Origin: Candidatus Parcubacteria bacterium
GTDB lineage: Bacteria > Patescibacteriota > Minisyncoccia > Phycocordibacterales > UBA918
Length of the DNA stretch: 45,678 nt
Direction: 5' to 3'
NCBI GenBank assembly: GCA_046050355.1
Contig: JBJOPW010000008.1
Coordinates: forward strand, 1-45,678
Shown here: in pieces, positions 35,767-39,322 of the stretch
How the letters are laid out: each line of letters starts with the position of its first letter
Numbering within the stretch: position 1 is the first letter of the stretch
Position numbers and translations under genes: made by a program
The notes under the pieces: generated by a model
The model's database searches: none
Told to the model about the DNA's origin: nothing
The model's input: the letters and a program-made list of their open reading frames with translations, nothing else

Positions 35767-36777
35767 TTATAACGAGTCATCGGCTTCTCTGAAGGCCTTC
35801 TGCACACTCTTGGTGAGTGCCAGTACGTCACTGAAGCGGTCTTCATAGGTCGAACCGAGGACAGTGATGATGATTGGTCGATTGTACCCGGCATCAAACG
35901 CGATGGTGAGATTGCCTTGCGCCAGATCTGTGTAACCGGTCTTTGAACCGAGGAGATTCGGGATGGCATTGATATCGGGATTGGTATTCTCTGCTTCGTG
36001 ATAGGTGCCGTCGGTGGCGACTATCCGCTCGTAAGCCATTGTCGTTGGCGCTAGGATGTCTGGATAGTTTTTGAGAATATAACTCATCAAGAACGATACA
36101 TCGCGAGCACTCCCATAGGCACCGGCTTTGGTTGGTGACATATCGAGACCGGTAGCGTTGTAAAAGCGGAGGGTAGCCAGATCGAGTTCCTCAGCAGTGA
36201 TATTCATTGCTTCCACAAATGCTTGTCCACCAGCATCTTCGACGAGCATGTTCCCGACACTATTGGCGATGGTGTAAGCTGCGTCATTTGATGAAGCGAG
36301 CATCGCGTAGTCCCGTAGCTCGCTTGCGAGTAACGTCTCACCCACCTTAAGTCCACTAGCACTCGCCTGCGTGGTTGCACCCGAGGGCACACGGATTTTG
36401 GTGTCATCAGCTACTAGTTCGCGGGCCACGAGCGCAGTCATAAGCTTCGTGATAGACGCAAGCGGCAGACTCTCATCAGCATTTTTGCTGTAGAGCACCC
36501 GATTTGTAGCAACGTCATAGACAAAGACCGCGTTCGCCTGAAGCGGTGGCGGATTAATTTCGGTTACTATAGCGAGCGCATCTTGGTCGTCGGTGGTGAC
36601 AGCCAGCGGTTGGTTCTTTGGAGTAGAACCTGGTTTTAGGATGTATGGCACGACGACTCCGCCAAGGAGACCACCGAGTACTGCCATCAGTACCAAAAAC
36701 TGTGCCAAGGCTGGGAAGCGTGGTGATTTTTGAACCACTACAGGAGCGTCGTTGTCGATGAATTCTCCGTCACTCAT
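35767..36777 (-). CDS. D-Ala-D-Ala carboxypeptidase (S11)
   Basis: ASITK, SSN, NATGL, KTG motifs. Confidence 0.92.
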   Translation of the reverse strand: MSDGEFIDNDAPVVVQKSPRFPALAQFLVLMAVLGGLLGGVVVPYILKPGSTPKNQPLAVTTDDQDALAIVTEINPPPLQANAVFVYDVATNRVLYSKNADESLPLASITKLMTALVARELVADDTKIRVPSGATTQASASGLKVGETLLASELRDYAMLASSNDAAYTIANSVGNMLVEDAGGQAFVEAMNITAEELDLATLRFYNATGLDMSPTKAGAYGSARDVSFLMSYILKNYPDILAPTTMAYERIVATDGTYHEAENTNPDINAIPNLLGSKTGYTDLAQGNLTIAFDAGYNRPIIITVLGSTYEDRFSDVLALTKSVQKAFREADDSL

Positions 36778-37367
36778 ACTCGGCTAGTCGTAGTCTGATC
36801 TGCGTCATCCGTAAGATCTTCTGTGTCAGGAGCAGTTTCTTCTGTGGCATGCTCTTGTGTAAAGCTCTCAAGTGCATCAGTAATTCGCGCAAAGTCAGTG
36901 AGTGCTGCCTGGCGGTCAACACCAAGGTGCGCGAGGAGACTCGGGGTCGCTTTGAAGAGGTAGCCACTTCCCTGCTTTTCGCCTCGTTCGATGAGGCCAC
37001 GGATAAGGAGGTTGCGAAGGATGAACGATGAGTTCACACCACGGATCTTGTCGATGTCACTACGTGAAATCGGACCACGGTAGAGAATAATGGCGAGGGT
37101 CTCAGCGCCAGCCTTGCCGATATCACTTTTGATATCTTGTTTGCGCAATTCTTCGATGAATGGTGCAAGGACTGGTGCGGTCACGAGCTCAATGTCCGTA
37201 TCAGTTTCAAGGAGACGAGTGGCTCCAGCTTCGAGGCGGGCGCGGAGTGTATCGAGTGTAGTGCGGAGGTCGCTGTCGGACACAGCAAATTGCTTCGCGA
37301 GCAGCGCTTTCTTCAGTGGCTGGGACTTATAGAAAAGCAGTCCTTCAATGAGGATGTCTAGTGGCAT
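36774..37367 (-). CDS. scpB: Segregation/condensation protein B
   Basis: IEGLLF, ETLAIILYRGPISRSDIDKIRGVNS. Confidence 0.95.
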   Translation of the reverse strand: MPLDILIEGLLFYKSQPLKKALLAKQFAVSDSDLRTTLDTLRARLEAGATRLLETDTDIELVTAPVLAPFIEELRKQDIKSDIGKAGAETLAIILYRGPISRSDIDKIRGVNSSFILRNLLIRGLIERGEKQGSGYLFKATPSLLAHLGVDRQAALTDFARITDALESFTQEHATEETAPDTEDLTDDADQTTTSRV

Positions 37368-37387
37368 CTTCCCTACAGTGTAGCACA

Positions 37388-37426
37388 AAACTGCCTCGAA
37401 AAAACCTTGTTTTTTCGAGGCAGTTT
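37388..37426. repeat. Perfect 18-bp inverted repeat between divergent promoters
   Basis: AAACTGCCTCGAAAAAAC-CTT-GTTTTTTCGAGGCAGTTT. Confidence 0.85.
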
Positions 37427-37491
37427 GTTGACAACTCCCAACTTTCACGGTATCGCTTGACTTTAGCTACTAAGTATGCTATTGTATTCGG

Positions 37492-37914
37492 TACCTGCGG
37501 CCTCGAAAGAGCAACCCCGCAGAAAGGAGGCTGAATGAAGACCACGTTCCTTGCCGAGATTGAAATGGATTCGACGAACATGGCCTCGACCGGCGCGCTG
37601 GATGCGAGCTCGGGCGAAGACGCTGCCGGCCATCAGCCGGCCTGACCCTCGGCCGGCCGACGTCTGAATTCCGCGGCCCTACGGGGCGATACGGATCGGG
37701 ACGTCTGTCGTGTCGTGACCCGAAGCGAGTAACTACCCTCGAGTGCTTGCGAAGCTTCGGGTCAACCGAAATCCACCGGCCGTTTGAATTGAGTCTGCTG
37801 CGGTGGGCAGCAAGGGAGGATCTGACGGATGTTTAAGTACTTTCGTCCGCCGATTCGCGCGGACACCTAACTCGGCGGCCCCTCGGTGAATAACCAGGGG
37901 CCCCATTCTTTTTT
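37492..37914 (+). ncRNA. Candidate large structured RNA, family unknown
   Basis: TTGACT-17-TATTGT promoter (37457-37485); successive GC-rich stems with GAAA and UACG tetraloops; terminal hairpin then T-run. Confidence 0.6.
37535..37645 (+). CDS. 36-aa acidic sORF MKTTFLAEIEMDSTNMASTGALDASSGEDAAGHQPA
   Basis: AAAGGAGG ends 4 nt before ATG; below ORF-track cutoff. Confidence 0.5.
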   Translation: MKTTFLAEIEMDSTNMASTGALDASSGEDAAGHQPA

Positions 37915-37920
37915 ATGAAT

Positions 37921-38661
37921 TTAGTAATACCGCGGCGTTCCCTCTTTCTCGAGTTCAATTTCAATATCATCAAAGCGCCCATGCTGCTTCACGAGGACAT
38001 TCCCCTGCTTGACGAGTTCTAGAATCGCCAAAAAGCCCACAATCACCGTCTTGTGTTCAGTGGCTTCTTTGCGAATGTCTGAAAACTTGGCCCGGAGCTG
38101 CGTTTCGATGCGACGTTTGAGACTATCCATCATTTGCTCAAGACTGATTGACGCTTTGACCTGTACCTTTGGCTTCACTTCCTTTTTGGGGAGGTTCTGC
38201 AACACACTCCACATCGCTTCGTGGAGCTGGGGGATGGTGCACCAACTATCGGTGATAAAGAGCGGATTTTTGGGCGCCACAAACCGTCGGCTGTACATGA
38301 TCTGTTTGCCAAACTGTGTGGCGAGTACCTGCCCTGCATCACGGTAGATCTGGTATTGCCGGAGACGCTCTTCGAGATCATCGATGGTCGCCTCTTCTTC
38401 TTTGGTGAGTTCAAGGACTGGAAGGAGTGACTTTGATTTGATGAGGAGGAGGGTGGCCGCCAGCCCGATGAACTGAGCGGTATTGGGGAGCGATTTCTCC
38501 TGCATCTCGCTAACACGACGAATATACTCGTCGGTTACTTCCGCGAGTGATATATCATTGATGAGGAGTTTCCGTTTTTCACACAGCTCAATGAGGAGTT
38601 CGAGTGGTCCCTCGAACACGTGTGTCTTGATAGAAAAATCGAGTGTACCACCAATTGCCAT
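37921..38661 (-). CDS. scpA: Segregation/condensation protein A (kleisin)
   Basis: FEGPLELL, AATLLLIKSKSLLP, FLAILEL.K. Confidence 0.95.
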   Translation of the reverse strand: MAIGGTLDFSIKTHVFEGPLELLIELCEKRKLLINDISLAEVTDEYIRRVSEMQEKSLPNTAQFIGLAATLLLIKSKSLLPVLELTKEEEATIDDLEERLRQYQIYRDAGQVLATQFGKQIMYSRRFVAPKNPLFITDSWCTIPQLHEAMWSVLQNLPKKEVKPKVQVKASISLEQMMDSLKRRIETQLRAKFSDIRKEATEHKTVIVGFLAILELVKQGNVLVKQHGRFDDIEIELEKEGTPRYY

Positions 38662-38686
38662 AGCATTAGTCTAGCACACACAATAA

Positions 38687-39322
38687 CTATTTTTCAGGAT
38701 GATAGTTTTTATTTCTTTCGTACAAAATATCATCGAAGCGTTTAATTATTGGAAACTCTGATACAAACGGATGTCGATGTGCCCGATACTCATCCGCAGT
38801 CCAGCCAAGATTGAAATACTTCGTGTAATCTTTCTCTTTTTTAGATAAAAAACTGAGATGGAAATTTGGTTCAATTTTATCCAAAGCCTTTACAAATTTT
38901 GATTCTACGCTTTCTCGCTTATCAAATTCAGCATATATCTCCACCAACATCGCAGTCATATGACTAGGGCTATTTTTCACAATATTAGCCTCGGCTATTT
39001 TTTCGTTTTCTTCGTGTTCTTTAGTTTTGGTTCGGGTGGTCATGTCCCCTACAAAAGCTTCAGCCATATCATGCCAGGTAGCCATGTGACGAATTTTATC
39101 CAAATCCATGTTCCCTTTATCTACCAACGGGAAAAAATAATCAATCAAGACATGCAATGCATAGACGTGTTCAGCTACTGACTCAGTCTCGTCCTCCTGA
39201 GTACGCTTATGAGCCCAGCGGATTGTGTGTTTGAGTTGGTAATACGAAACGAGCGTGTCAATTTCATTTTGAACAAAAGCATTATCAGTAAGTATCTTGT
39301 TTTTAATTTCTTCTATTGTCAT
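38687..39322 (-). CDS. HD-domain phosphohydrolase (YfbR-like)
   Basis: LK...R, ESVAEH, HDMAEAFVGD, KALDK; AT-rich. Confidence 0.88.
   Translation of the reverse strand: MTIEEIKNKILTDNAFVQNEIDTLVSYYQLKHTIRWAHKRTQEDETESVAEHVYALHVLIDYFFPLVDKGNMDLDKIRHMATWHDMAEAFVGDMTTRTKTKEHEENEKIAEANIVKNSPSHMTAMLVEIYAEFDKRESVESKFVKALDKIEPNFHLSFLSKKEKDYTKYFNLGWTADEYRAHRHPFVSEFPIIKRFDDILYERNKNYHPEK

What the first reader, a model, noticed from the sequence alone, without database searches (positions are those of the whole stretch)
37457..37914. Unassigned ~420-nt structured RNA with an SD-led 36-aa peptide, lying between scpA and scpB on the opposite strand
Seen: promoter TTGACT-17-TATTGT; 5' stem CTGCGG/CCGCAG enclosing CTC-GAAA-GAG; AAAGGAGG and sORF 37535-37645; then ~270 nt of consecutive stems (GACGTC/GACGTC around GCCC-TACG-GGGC, perfect 11-bp TGACCCGAAGC/GCTTCGGGTCA at 37716-37764, TGCTGC/GCAGCA, GACGGA/TTCGTC, CGCCGA/TCGGCG) and a terminator. 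It is visibly GC-richer than its flanks. Known: scpA and scpB are usually adjacent. I could not match it to tmRNA, RNase P, SRP or an intron. Inference: an undescribed dual-function RNA, or a small RNA-based mobile unit. Best candidate for a new system here.
Basis: partly seen in the sequence, partly recalled or inferred. Interest (0 to 1): 0.85.

Follow-up and report, generated by a model that had tools for sequence, protein, structure and literature searches.

The report
Two-peptide structured RNA between scpA and scpB
A small self-contained gene with its own promoter and terminator, carrying two tiny protein-coding frames inside a folded GC-rich RNA, sits backwards between two chromosome-packaging genes of a tiny-genome freshwater bacterium; it matches no described RNA or protein family, and what it does is unknown.

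Summary
Window 37457-37914 (+) has an extended -10 promoter, a 5' stem-loop, an SD-led 36-aa sORF, GC-rich hairpins and an intrinsic terminator. It lies between ScpA and ScpB (Pfam-confirmed) on the opposite strand. Nothing in Rfam, ARAGORN, Pfam or NCBIfam matches. tmRNA and RNase P RNA lie elsewhere in the genome.

New here:
- There is a second SD-led sORF, 37829-37870 (MFKYFRPPIRADT). Its last 7 codons vary only synonymously in 4 sequences, and it ends 6 nt before the terminator stem.
- A noncoding core, 37707-37828, is better conserved (78% to a relative) than sORF1 (48%).
- The unit belongs to a genus-restricted, modular family in the same spacer: 27 of 74 complete congener spacers carry the promoter, against 0 of 28 in other families.
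- 20 of 25 first sORFs end in UGA, 16 as C-UGA-Y, yet UGA ends only 12% of this genome's long ORFs.
- The unit is single-copy with no visible target duplication, so mobility is unsupported.

Best reading (about 0.5): a stable bicistronic micropeptide mRNA with a functional RNA core, i.e. a candidate dual-function RNA. Covariation is mixed, no transcript data could be obtained, and the function is unknown.

The parts
37384..37431 (.). Boundary element, not part of the unit: a roughly 20-bp hairpin with T-rich tails on both strands, next to the scpB start. Most likely a bidirectional terminator.
   Evidence: Sequence. It is the only thing Rfam models touched, as chance miRNA hits far below gathering score. 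It is also kept in spacers that lack the unit (L008, L015, L103, L105). L104 shows a U-A to C-G compensatory change.
37457..37485 (+). Sigma-70-type promoter: TTGACT, 17 nt, TG-n-TATTGT (extended -10). The predicted start is near 37492-37493.
   Evidence: Consensus scan. The same promoter type occurs at the same place in 27 of 33 long spacers of congeners. It is the only part of the unit that BLAST finds in relatives. The start site is predicted, not measured.
37493..37534 (+). 5' UTR: a 5'-terminal stem-loop (CUGCGG 37495-500 / CCGCAG 37517-22, inner CUC/GAG), then the SD AAAGGAGG at 37523-37530.
   Evidence: In 20 of 24 curated family members the MFE fold of the predicted 5' UTR pairs within the first 3 nt, against 10.8 expected from shuffles. 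In the window's own MFE an alternative pairing with the SD wins.
37535..37645 (+). sORF1, 36 aa (MKTTFLAEIEMDSTNMASTGALDASSGEDAAGHQPA), ending in UGA in the context C-UGA-C.
   Evidence: SD-led first ORFs occur in 25 of 27 promoter-bearing spacers (shuffles: mean 9.5, max 17). Their stops are TGA 20, TAG 4, TAA 1, and 16 are C-TGA-Y (shuffles: mean 0.4, max 3). The peptide evolves fast: 2 synonymous against 8 nonsynonymous codon changes versus L104.
37636..37657 (+). Hairpin GCCGGCC/GGCCGGC with the sORF1 stop codon in its loop, and a GC box (GGCCGG-like) just downstream.
   Evidence: A box of this kind lies within 45 nt after the stop in 15 of 24 curated members. One pair is broken in L104.
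37659..37705 (+). Hairpin H2: outer GACGUC/GACGUC, middle UCCG/CGGA, inner GCCC-UACG-GGGC.
   Evidence: Against L104 there is one compensatory pair (U-A to A-U) and two compatible single changes. L108 has a different sequence here that I read by eye as a similar nested hairpin.
37707..37828 (+). Conserved noncoding core. It comprises the linker UGUCGUGUCGUG, H3 (37716-26/37754-64), the junction AACCGAAAU, H4' (UCCACCG 37772-78 / CGGUGGG 37801-07) and SD2, GGGAGG at 37814-37819.
   Evidence: Identity between the window and L108 is 0.78 here, against 0.48 in sORF1 and 0.43 in the 5' UTR. The RNAalifold consensus of three sequences gives H3, H4' and a closing helix between the linker and the SD2-AUG region. 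A covariance model of it (R1) finds only G000 among 128 genus genomes.
37829..37870 (+). sORF2, 13 aa (MFKYFRPPIRADT), with stop UAA. Its AUG is partly inside the hairpin GACGGA/UUCGUC (37824-29/37842-47).
   Evidence: Translation. In four sequences (window, L104, L102, L107), 5 of the last 7 sense codons vary, all synonymously, including CGC/CGG/AGG for Arg; there are no nonsynonymous changes. This motif occurs in 1 of 128 genus genomes, G000 only.
37877..37914 (+). Intrinsic terminator: stem GGCCCCU/AGGGGCC, a 12-nt loop, then CCAUUCUUUUUU. The stem starts 6 nt after the sORF2 stop and the T-run ends 6 nt before the scpA stop codon.
   Evidence: Sequence. It is identical in L104 and L102. 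By eye, L107 reads GGCCCCG...CGGGGCC, which would be U-A to G-C; the automatic alignment of L107 did not place this cleanly.

Best explanation
The interval is a self-contained plus-strand transcription unit. It sits between the stop codon of scpA and the terminator hairpin and own promoter that precede scpB.

I read it as a stable, strongly expressed bicistronic micropeptide mRNA whose RNA body also carries a sequence-specific element, which makes it a candidate dual-function RNA.

Proposed working, step by step:
1. An extended -10 promoter fires. Shown only as a conserved consensus.
2. A stem-loop at the very 5' end protects the transcript. Inferred from known 5'-stem stabilisers.
3. Ribosomes load at AAAGGAGG and read sORF1 to an unusual, conserved C-UGA-Y stop that sits in a GC hairpin. 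The comparative signal says the frame is read; the peptide itself is poorly conserved, so the act of translation may matter more than the product.
4. The conserved core folds into H3 and H4' and can pair its linker with the SD2-AUG region, gating sORF2. Inferred; support is mixed.
5. sORF2 yields a conserved 13-aa peptide.
6. The terminator ends the RNA just before scpA.

Because scpA has no terminator of its own before the unit, the RNA is also antisense to the scpA 3' tail. What the peptides or the core act on is unknown.
For: Unit signals and lack of matches:
- Promoter, two SD-led ORFs and a terminator, all on the plus strand.
- No match to any Rfam, Pfam or NCBIfam family.

The same kind of unit in the same spacer of congeners:
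- Of 74 complete spacers, 33 are at least 170 nt long.
- 27 of those 33 carry the promoter.
- 25 of the 27 have an SD-led ATG ORF of at least 10 aa within 260 nt of the predicted start (shuffles: mean 9.5, max 17 of 27).
- The predicted start-to-ATG distance is 40-46 nt in 12 of these 25.

Evidence that the frames are read:
- Stops are TGA in 20 of 25 first ORFs, and 16 are C-TGA-Y (shuffles: 33% TGA; C-TGA-Y mean 0.4). In this genome TGA ends 43 of 366 long ORFs and CTGAY ends 2 of 366.
- 16 of 25 first ORFs run in frame to that motif. If the ATG and the motif were unlinked, at most about a third would be expected to.
- sORF2: 5 of its last 7 codons vary synonymously and none nonsynonymously, n=4.
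- There are no indels in either sORF between the window and L104, while the noncoding parts have five indels of 1-2 nt.

Evidence for an RNA-level element:
- The core is 0.78 identical to L108 against 0.48 for sORF1.
- A 5'-terminal stem is predicted in 20 of 24 members against 10.8 expected.
- Two compensatory pairs and three compatible single changes are seen against L104.
- By eye, H3 is kept with other sequences in L019, L007 and L102.
Against: - No transcript, 5'/3' end, ribosome footprint or peptide was seen. The only RNA-library contigs laid came from relatives and ran across scpB, the promoter and the RNA 5' end, so they show nothing about expression.
- sORF1 shows no third-position bias against L104: differences by codon position are 4/6/6, with 2 synonymous and 8 nonsynonymous codon changes. 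Against that, L017 versus L020 gives only a weak bias, 15/18/24.
- An open frame of 36 codons is near the chance length at this GC content (my estimate, not a tool result).
- Helix support is mixed. Against L104 there are four disruptive changes (stop hairpin, H3, H6, end of the long-range box) beside the two compensatory ones.
- The closing helix that would gate sORF2 is broken at 5 of 12 pairs in L108.
- The sORF2 evidence rests on four related sequences, and it overlaps a hairpin that could itself constrain the bases.
- Family members are kin, so the counts overstate independence.
- My set of 24 was picked partly by the UGA feature. I therefore rely on the unselected count of 25.
Confidence: 0.5

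Rival explanations
1. It is a riboregulator in which the short frames are incidental or merely regulatory. The conserved core, or the whole RNA as an antisense partner of the scpA 3' tail, is the active part. It would act by base pairing on scpA or other mRNAs, or by binding a protein.
For: - The noncoding core is the best-conserved part: 0.78 identity to L108 against 0.48 for sORF1.
- The sORF1 peptide is poorly conserved.
- The RNA is fully complementary to whatever scpA transcript runs on to the hairpin at 37384-37431. On the minus strand the unit's terminator hairpin is not followed by a T-run (sequence).
- Other spacers of the genus hold promoter-to-terminator units without a clear sORF, such as L034, L056 and L097.
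Against: - Strong SD sites sit in front of both frames.
- sORF2 varies synonymously only.
- The first ORF runs in frame to the conserved C-TGA-Y in 16 of 25.
- A simple search for complements of the conserved unpaired stretches in the genome gave only 1-mismatch hits of chance quality, and none for the 17-nt H4' loop.
Confidence: 0.22
2. It is a ribosome-operated attenuator. Translation of sORF2, which holds Pro-Pro and ends 6 nt before the terminator stem, decides whether the terminator forms. That in turn decides how much antisense transcription runs into scpA. sORF1 and the core set how often sORF2 is read.
For: - Geometry in the window: the sORF2 stop is at 37868-70 and the terminator stem starts at 37877.
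- Similar closeness is seen by eye in the other sORF2 type, where the L007 and L108 stop lies 3-4 nt before the terminator stem.
- The conserved odd stop context of sORF1.
- The SD2-AUG region can be paired by the linker and by H5.
- It resembles ribosome-coupled attenuators such as pyrBI and the proline-rich leader ORFs of mgtA and mgtCBR (recalled, not checked here).
Against: - There is no structural gene downstream on this strand.
- No alternative antiterminator pairing was found.
- In L107 the stop lies 18 nt from the terminator stem. In L016, L018, L019 and L061 the second mini-ORF lies far from any terminator.
- Several relatives have further hairpins between the unit and scpA that would block read-through, for example L009.
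Confidence: 0.1
3. It is a small mobile or horizontally acquired element, or the decayed remnant of an accessory gene, without a function of its own.
For: - Presence or absence among close relatives. G030/L008 (95% ScpA identity), L103 (95%) and L105 (89%) have 83-nt spacers. G007/L009 (95%) and L104 (93%) carry a unit.
- The modules are mosaic. L102 shares only the 3' module, and L108 shares the middle but has a different 3' end.
- The GC content is higher than the genome's.
- The same spacer holds unrelated small ORFs of about 100-130 aa in L010, L061, L067 and L080.
Against: - The unit is single-copy in the genome.
- It is always at the same locus.
- I saw no target duplication or terminal repeats by eye.
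- There is no recombinase nearby.
- It has no match in phage, plasmid, viral or other genome collections.
- Promoter, SD sites, stop context and terminator are kept across the genus, which decay would not do.
Confidence: 0.06
4. It is a diverged copy of a known housekeeping RNA (tmRNA, RNase P RNA, SRP RNA, 6S RNA) or a selenoprotein gene with a SECIS hairpin after the UGA.
For: - Small SRP RNA and 6S RNA were not found in the genome by their Rfam models.
- The UGA is followed by a hairpin.
- GGAUUCGACG inside sORF1 recalls the tmRNA 5' end (recalled).
Against: - tmRNA (104.6 bits) and RNase P RNA (109 bits) are on other contigs.
- ARAGORN found nothing here.
- No Rfam family reaches E<=10 in the unit itself.
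- The unit is missing from close relatives, which a housekeeping RNA would not be.
- SelA was not found, and RF2 is present.
- Frames after the UGA are not conserved (read by eye).
Confidence: 0.03

Closest known systems
Dual-function (coding plus regulatory) bacterial RNAs: RNAIII/hld, Pel/sagA, SgrS/SgrT, SR1/SR1P, AzuCR
   Same: An own promoter and terminator, a few hundred nucleotides with many stem-loops, and a short SD-led ORF in the 5' part followed by a conserved noncoding part. For comparison, from passages read in PMC12612679: RNAIII is 514 nt with 14 stem-loops and a 26-aa ORF in its 5' region; Pel is 469 nt with a 53-aa ORF; SgrS is 227 nt with a 43-aa ORF; AzuCR is 164 nt with a 28-aa ORF. 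That review also notes that the ORF and the base-pairing part need not be equally conserved, as is seen here.
   Different: There is no sequence or model match to any of them. This unit has two SD-led ORFs, not one. No base-pairing target is known. The first ORF ends in an invariant-looking C-UGA-Y stop inside a hairpin. The unit lies convergent to, and antisense of, the scpA 3' tail. It is hypervariable and modular within one genus.
Leader-peptide attenuators and the small RNAs released from them (trp attenuator rnTrpL/peTrpL; pyrBI; mgtA and mgtCBR leaders)
   Same: A very short ORF (13 aa here) that ends next to an intrinsic terminator. Proline codons in the short ORF. Structured RNA in front of it that can hide its start. 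rnTrpL is listed among dual-function RNAs in PMC12612679. The details of pyrBI and the mgt leaders are recalled, not checked.
   Different: There is no downstream structural gene on the same strand, so there is nothing obvious to attenuate except antisense transcription into scpA. No antiterminator alternative was found. The closeness of stop and terminator is not kept in all relatives.
Type I toxin-antitoxin loci
   Same: Small ORFs in long, highly folded, stable mRNAs in intergenic spots, variable between strains (recalled).
   Different: Both peptides here are hydrophilic or charged, not hydrophobic membrane peptides. No antisense promoter was found on the minus strand in 36700-38700.
5'-terminal stem-loop mRNA stabilisers (ompA, ermC type)
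   Same: A stem that begins within 1-3 nt of the predicted 5' end, seen in 20 of 24 members. The known role in protection from 5'-end-dependent RNases is recalled.
   Different: Only one feature of the unit is covered, and the start site is predicted, not mapped.

Membership tests
tmRNA | A tRNA-like acceptor and T-arm ending in CCA, a tag frame without SD or AUG, and detection by ARAGORN or RF00023 | tested here: not met
   ARAGORN found nothing in the window. No RF00023 hit in the unit. The genome's tmRNA is at C14:21563-21991, 104.6 bits.
RNase P RNA (bacterial type A) | A match to RF00010 and universal presence as a single essential gene | tested here: not met
   No hit in the unit. The genome's copy is at C2:71704-72102, 109 bits. 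The unit is absent from close relatives.
SRP RNA / 6S RNA | A match to RF00169 or RF00013, and presence in all relatives | tested here: not met
   No hit in the unit at E<=10. Neither family was found anywhere in the genome by these two models, so where they are stays open. The large SRP model RF01854 was not searched genome-wide. A unit missing from 41 of 74 congener spacers cannot be a housekeeping RNA.
Dual-function RNA | A discrete transcript with its own promoter and terminator | tested here: inconclusive
   The sequence signals are present and conserved. No transcript data could be obtained.
Dual-function RNA | The short ORF is translated | tested here: inconclusive
   Only comparative signs: sORF2 varies synonymously only, n=4, and SD-led ORFs run in frame to C-TGA-Y in 16 of 25. 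The sORF1 protein sequence is weakly constrained. There are no ribosome or peptide data.
Dual-function RNA | The same RNA regulates targets by base pairing or protein binding | not testable with these tools
   Only a conserved noncoding core. A crude complement search gave nothing usable.
Leader-peptide transcription attenuator | A short ORF, alternative terminator and antiterminator folds, and a regulated gene downstream on the same strand | tested here: not met
   The short ORF and terminator are adjacent. The next feature downstream is the 3' end of scpA on the other strand. No antiterminator alternative appeared in the folds.
Selenoprotein gene with bacterial SECIS | An in-frame UGA followed by a hairpin, a conserved frame beyond it, and selA/selB/selC/selD in the genome | tested here: not met
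   SelA (PF03841) was not found in a genome 99.97% complete. ARAGORN found no tRNA in the window; the rest of the genome was not scanned for tRNA-Sec. Frames after the UGA differ in length and sequence (by eye). RF2 is present.
Type I toxin-antitoxin | A hydrophobic toxin peptide and an overlapping antisense small RNA | tested here: not met
   The peptides are hydrophilic. There is no minus-strand promoter-like site in 36700-38700.
Mobile element (IS, MITE, integron cassette) | Multiple copies or other loci, terminal repeats or target duplication, and a recombinase or attC-type site | tested here: not met
   One copy in the genome. The locus is the same in all relatives. No duplication was seen by eye at the junctions against empty spacers. 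The neighbours are ScpA, ScpB, a carboxypeptidase, an HD protein and a peptidase.
RiPP precursor peptide | A conserved leader and variable core, and a maturase encoded nearby | tested here: inconclusive
   In the nearer relatives the N-terminus is more alike (MKxNFSPxGH) than the rest. None of the six neighbouring proteins is a known maturase. The rest of the genome was not searched.

The most novel reading that the evidence does not exclude
The unit is a ribosome-operated RNA switch that couples the state of translation to chromosome packaging in a minimal-genome bacterium. Termination at the conserved, weak-looking C-UGA-Y stop of sORF1 lies inside a GC hairpin and is read only by RF2, in a genome where UGA is the rarest stop. 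That termination would remodel the conserved core, open the hidden start of sORF2, and so let ribosomes run up to the terminator stem. This would set how much antisense RNA reads into scpA (the kleisin of the SMC complex). The two peptides would be by-products or co-effectors.
Probability: 0.07. Interest if true: 0.8.

Novelty: new member of a known kind. Interest (0 to 1): 0.45.

Why it matters
Very little is known about RNA-level regulation or micropeptides in the tiny-genome bacteria of the Patescibacteria; my four searches of the paper library found nothing on this locus.

This work gives a concrete, conserved and fast-evolving candidate with clear parts to test:
- a strong promoter;
- two short reading frames;
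- a conserved RNA core;
- an odd stop-codon context.

It also shows that in this genus scpA and scpB are split into two transcription units. The spacer between them is a hot spot for small genes and RNAs. If the unit does act on scpA or through its peptides, it would link translation to chromosome organisation in an organism with very few regulators. If it does not, it is one more orphan small gene.

Tried and rejected
Searches and tests that led nowhere:
- Rfam, at gathering score on the window, at E<=10 on 37300-38000 and at E<=0.01 on 11 relatives' loci. Nothing but chance miRNA-model hits to the hairpin 37384-37431.
- ARAGORN: nothing.
- Pfam and NCBIfam on 10 sORF1 peptides: nothing at E<=1.
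- ESM Atlas on sORF1: no usable hit.
- The search for homologous proteins with a 12-peptide profile: 5 hits, all of them my own query peptides. One carries the source name 'MAG: hypothetical protein [Candidatus Paceibacteria bacterium]'.
- The full HMMER search of 1.84 billion representatives: 5 hits at E<=0.001. Three were my own peptides. One was the L017 peptide read through two TGA codons as W by some gene caller. One was an unrelated 607-aa repeat protein.
- BLAST of the unit against 60 relatives: only the promoter region matched, in 4 congeners at E 0.002-0.009.
- Phages, plasmids, viral contigs and the species genome collection: no match.
- Covariance model R1 of the core: only G000 among 128 genus genomes. 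Two other hits, at E 0.04 and 0.1, are taken as chance.
- Pattern searches in 128 genus genomes: the sORF2 tail occurs only in G000, and the other sORF2 type only in G025.

RNA evidence:
- The look-up of sequencing runs listed 22 runs. Three DNA runs hold the stretch and may be its source. RNA runs held at most 5% of the words.
- Of the four runs laid, X17, X18 and X19 gave short contigs of relatives, about 87-95% alike. These cover the scpB 5' end, the promoter and the first bases of a relative's RNA, or the terminator and scpA end. X21 gave nothing. This shows neither expression nor silence.

Ideas rejected:
- +1 frameshifting or read-through at the UGA. Frames after the UGA are not conserved (by eye), and RF2 here has no frameshift site.
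- The tmRNA idea from GGAUUCGACG, for the reasons given under the rivals.
- A complement search for trans targets, which gave only chance-level hits.
- A GC-rich-island scan of the genome, which found no second unit of this kind.
- MAFFT alignment of the core with L007 and L102. It misaligned them, so I built the model from three sequences only.

Full report
WHAT IS THERE

The sequence shows, on the plus strand:
- a promoter, TTGACT-17-TATTGT with TG before the -10 hexamer, at 37457-37485. The consensus scan found it;
- a stem, CTGCGG/CCGCAG, at 37495-37522 that encloses CTC-GAAA-GAG;
- AAAGGAGG at 37523-37530;
- an ATG ORF of 36 codons at 37535-37645;
- a run of hairpins whose arms I located exactly;
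- a terminator: stem 37877-83/37896-902, then a T-run to 37914.

GC content is 0.64 at 37500-37800, against about 0.5 beside it and 0.48 for the genome. The flanking minus-strand genes are ScpA (PF02616) and ScpB (PF04079).

The RNA folds better than its shuffles (z -2.9), but so does the opposite strand (z -4.8). The strand is therefore assigned from the promoter, the SD sites and the terminator, not from folding.

NOT A KNOWN RNA OR PROTEIN

- Rfam gives nothing at gathering score in the window.
- At E<=10 in 37300-38000 it gives only chance miRNA-model hits to the hairpin 37384-37431.
- It gives nothing at E<=0.01 in 11 relatives' loci.
- ARAGORN finds nothing.
- The genome's tmRNA and RNase P RNA lie on other contigs. 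Small SRP and 6S models find nothing anywhere in the genome.
- The sORF1 peptides hit no Pfam or NCBIfam model.
- Two very large protein searches returned only my own query peptides. The exceptions were one gene call that read the L017 peptide through TGA as W, and one unrelated repeat protein.
- Phage, plasmid, viral and species-genome collections hold nothing like it.

A SECOND SHORT FRAME

- GGGAGG at 37814-37819 is followed by ATG at 37829 and a 13-codon frame, MFKYFRPPIRADT, that stops at 37868-37870.
- Three metagenome contigs of relatives carry the same frame: L104, L102 and L107.
- Across the four sequences, 5 of the last 7 sense codons differ, and every difference is synonymous (CCG/CCC, ATT/ATC, CGC/CGG/AGG, GCG/GCA, GAC/GAT). 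Codons 2 and 5 change the residue.
- This is the clearest sign that a frame in this RNA is read, though it rests on four kin sequences and overlaps a hairpin.
- The stop lies 6 nt before the terminator stem.

A FAMILY IN ONE SPACER OF ONE GENUS

Sampling:
- ScpA was found in 115 of 121 genus genomes searched.
- I examined the spacer in 90 of them. In 74, both genes were found on the stretch fetched (25 of 30 loci; 49 of 60).

Counts in those 74 spacers:
- 41 spacers are shorter than 170 nt and 33 are longer.
- 27 of the 33 long spacers carry a TTGAC-N16-19-TAnnnT promoter on the strand opposite to scp.
- 25 of those 27 have an SD-led ATG frame of at least 10 codons within 260 nt of the predicted start. 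Shuffles of the same tails give a mean of 9.5 and a maximum of 17.

Outside the genus, in 28 genomes of 28 other families of the order, the gap is 0-205 nt (25 of them at most 108 nt) and none has such a promoter.

The unit comes and goes among close relatives:
- G030/L008 (95% ScpA identity), L103 (95%) and L105 (89%) have 83-nt spacers.
- G007/L009 (95%) and L104 (93%) carry a unit.

It is also mosaic:
- L104 is collinear with the window (471 of 558 aligned columns identical).
- L102 shares only the 3' module.
- L108 shares the middle but has another sORF1 and another sORF2 type, QRDVSDVVC, which it shares with G025/L007.

The genome holds one copy.

THE ODD STOP

- In this genome TGA ends 43 of 366 long open frames (12%), and CTGAC or CTGAT ends 2 of them.
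- In the unselected set of 25 first frames, 20 end in TGA and 16 in C-TGA-Y. Shuffles give 33% TGA and 0.4 C-TGA-Y.
- In my hand-picked set of 24 members, all end in TGA, with C before it in 21 and C or T after it in 23. That set was chosen partly by this feature, so it proves nothing on its own.
- By eye, the stop sits in or beside a small GC hairpin or palindrome in most members. A GGCCGG-like box follows within 45 nt in 15 of 24.
- SelA is not in the genome. RF2 is present, without a frameshift site. Frames beyond the UGA are not kept. Selenocysteine and RF2-type frameshifting are therefore set aside.

That 16 of 25 SD-led frames run in frame to this motif argues that the frame is read. Yet the sORF1 protein is weakly constrained: 2 synonymous against 8 nonsynonymous codon changes versus L104, and 10 against 22 for L017 versus L020. 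The act of translating may matter more than the product, or the peptide may be evolving fast.

THE RNA BODY

Between the window and L108, a relative with 85% ScpA identity, identity is:
- 0.78 in 37707-37828;
- 0.48 in sORF1;
- 0.43 in the 5' UTR;
- 0.51 in the post-stop and H2 part;
- 0.39 in the terminator.

The RNAalifold consensus of the window, L104 and L108 gives three helices:
- H3, the 11-bp helix;
- H4' (UCCACCGG/CCGGUGGG);
- a closing helix between the linker GUCGUGUC and the SD2-AUG region.

The closing helix would hide the sORF2 start, but 5 of its 12 pairs are broken in L108.

Against L104 the helices show:
- two compensatory pairs, in the H2 outer stem and in a possible long-range box;
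- three compatible single changes;
- four disruptive changes.

At family level, the predicted 5' UTR pairs within its first 3 nt in 20 of 24 members, against 10.8 expected from shuffles. Overall the structure is plausible and partly supported, not proven.

CONTEXT

- In 73 of 74 genus spacers, a TGnTAnnnT motif ends 6-21 nt (68 of the 73 at 6-12 nt) before the scpB ATG on the minus strand. In the other-family spacers of at least 25 nt, 2 of 11 have it.
- scpB therefore seems to have its own promoter and a very short or absent leader.
- The hairpin 37384-37431 then reads as a bidirectional terminator between two units.
- The plus-strand unit sits between the scpA stop and that terminator, so it is antisense to whatever scpA transcript runs on.

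READING

I commit, at about 0.5, to a stable bicistronic micropeptide mRNA with a functional RNA core, which makes it a candidate dual-function RNA. Its closest known relatives in kind are RNAIII, Pel, SgrS and AzuCR (passages of PMC12612679).

Rivals:
- a riboregulator or cis-antisense RNA with incidental frames (0.22);
- a ribosome-operated attenuator of antisense transcription into scpA (0.10);
- a mobile or decaying insert (0.06);
- a missed known RNA or a selenoprotein gene (0.03).

No expression data could be had. The RNA-library contigs laid were from relatives and are uninformative.

Four searches of the paper library found nothing on this locus or on such RNAs in these bacteria:
- Patescibacteria / small RNA / noncoding RNA;
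- Saccharibacteria / small proteins / sORF;
- Candidate Phyla Radiation / structured RNA / small ORF / Paceibacteria / dual-function;
- scpA / scpB / antisense RNA.

For these I saw listings and abstracts only, except for the passages of the one review named above. Supplementary files were not consulted and do not bear on any claim here.

VERDICT

This is a real, conserved, undescribed small gene of unknown function. It is a new family within the known kind of short-ORF-bearing structured RNAs. Interest is moderate.

Noticed in passing
window 37369-37431 (minus strand) and 74 congener spacers: scpB seems to have its own extended -10 promoter. In 73 of 74 genus spacers, TGnTAnnnT ends 6-21 nt before the ATG (68 of the 73 at 6-12 nt), which suggests a leaderless or near-leaderless scpB mRNA. 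In other families of the order it is present in 2 of 11 spacers of at least 25 nt. In this genus scpA and scpB therefore look like two transcription units.
   Followed up: partly
window 37384-37431: A roughly 20-bp hairpin with T-rich tails on both strands sits between the unit and scpB. It is kept, with compensatory changes, in spacers that lack the unit. It is most likely a bidirectional terminator.
   Followed up: partly
L034, L056, L097; L046, L048, L075; L042, L046, L075 (scpB-scpA spacers of congeners): By eye, at least three other promoter-to-terminator units without a clear sORF recur in the same spacer of other species. One contains GGTCACC...CCCGCTAAGTT...AGAATCGCGAG, one GGTGAGCCGAG...GGCCGGAGTC, and one GTCCAGCGACCC. 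Rfam found nothing in L034.
   Followed up: no
L010, L061, L067, L080 (same spacer): Some congeners carry an extra SD-led ORF of about 100-130 aa with its own promoter in the spacer, on the same strand as the small unit. The spacer is a hot spot for accessory small genes.
   Followed up: no
G000 whole genome: TGA is the rarest stop codon: 43 of 366 long open frames, against TAA 208 and TAG 115. The RF2 gene (C3:84016-84738, minus strand) is a single open frame of 314 aa with a short N-terminus and no CTTTGA frameshift site.
   Followed up: partly
G000 C15:17035-17749 (minus strand) and C6:33103-33255 (minus strand): Two other GC-rich stretches outside long ORFs, each with a consensus promoter and a terminator. 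By eye, the C15 one holds an SD-led frame of about 70 codons. The C6 one looks like a small structured RNA. Neither was identified.
   Followed up: no
protein P0006 (from the representative library): A 120-aa database protein is the L017 sORF1 read through two TGA codons as W. A gene caller evidently used a TGA=Trp table on that contig.
   Followed up: yes
L016, L018, L061 (second mini-ORFs): By eye, other members carry a very short SD-led second frame beginning MK[IM]F: MKIFRL, MKMFRCMNSPHDTAWRW and MKMFLCI. These lie in the middle of the RNA rather than beside the terminator.
   Followed up: no
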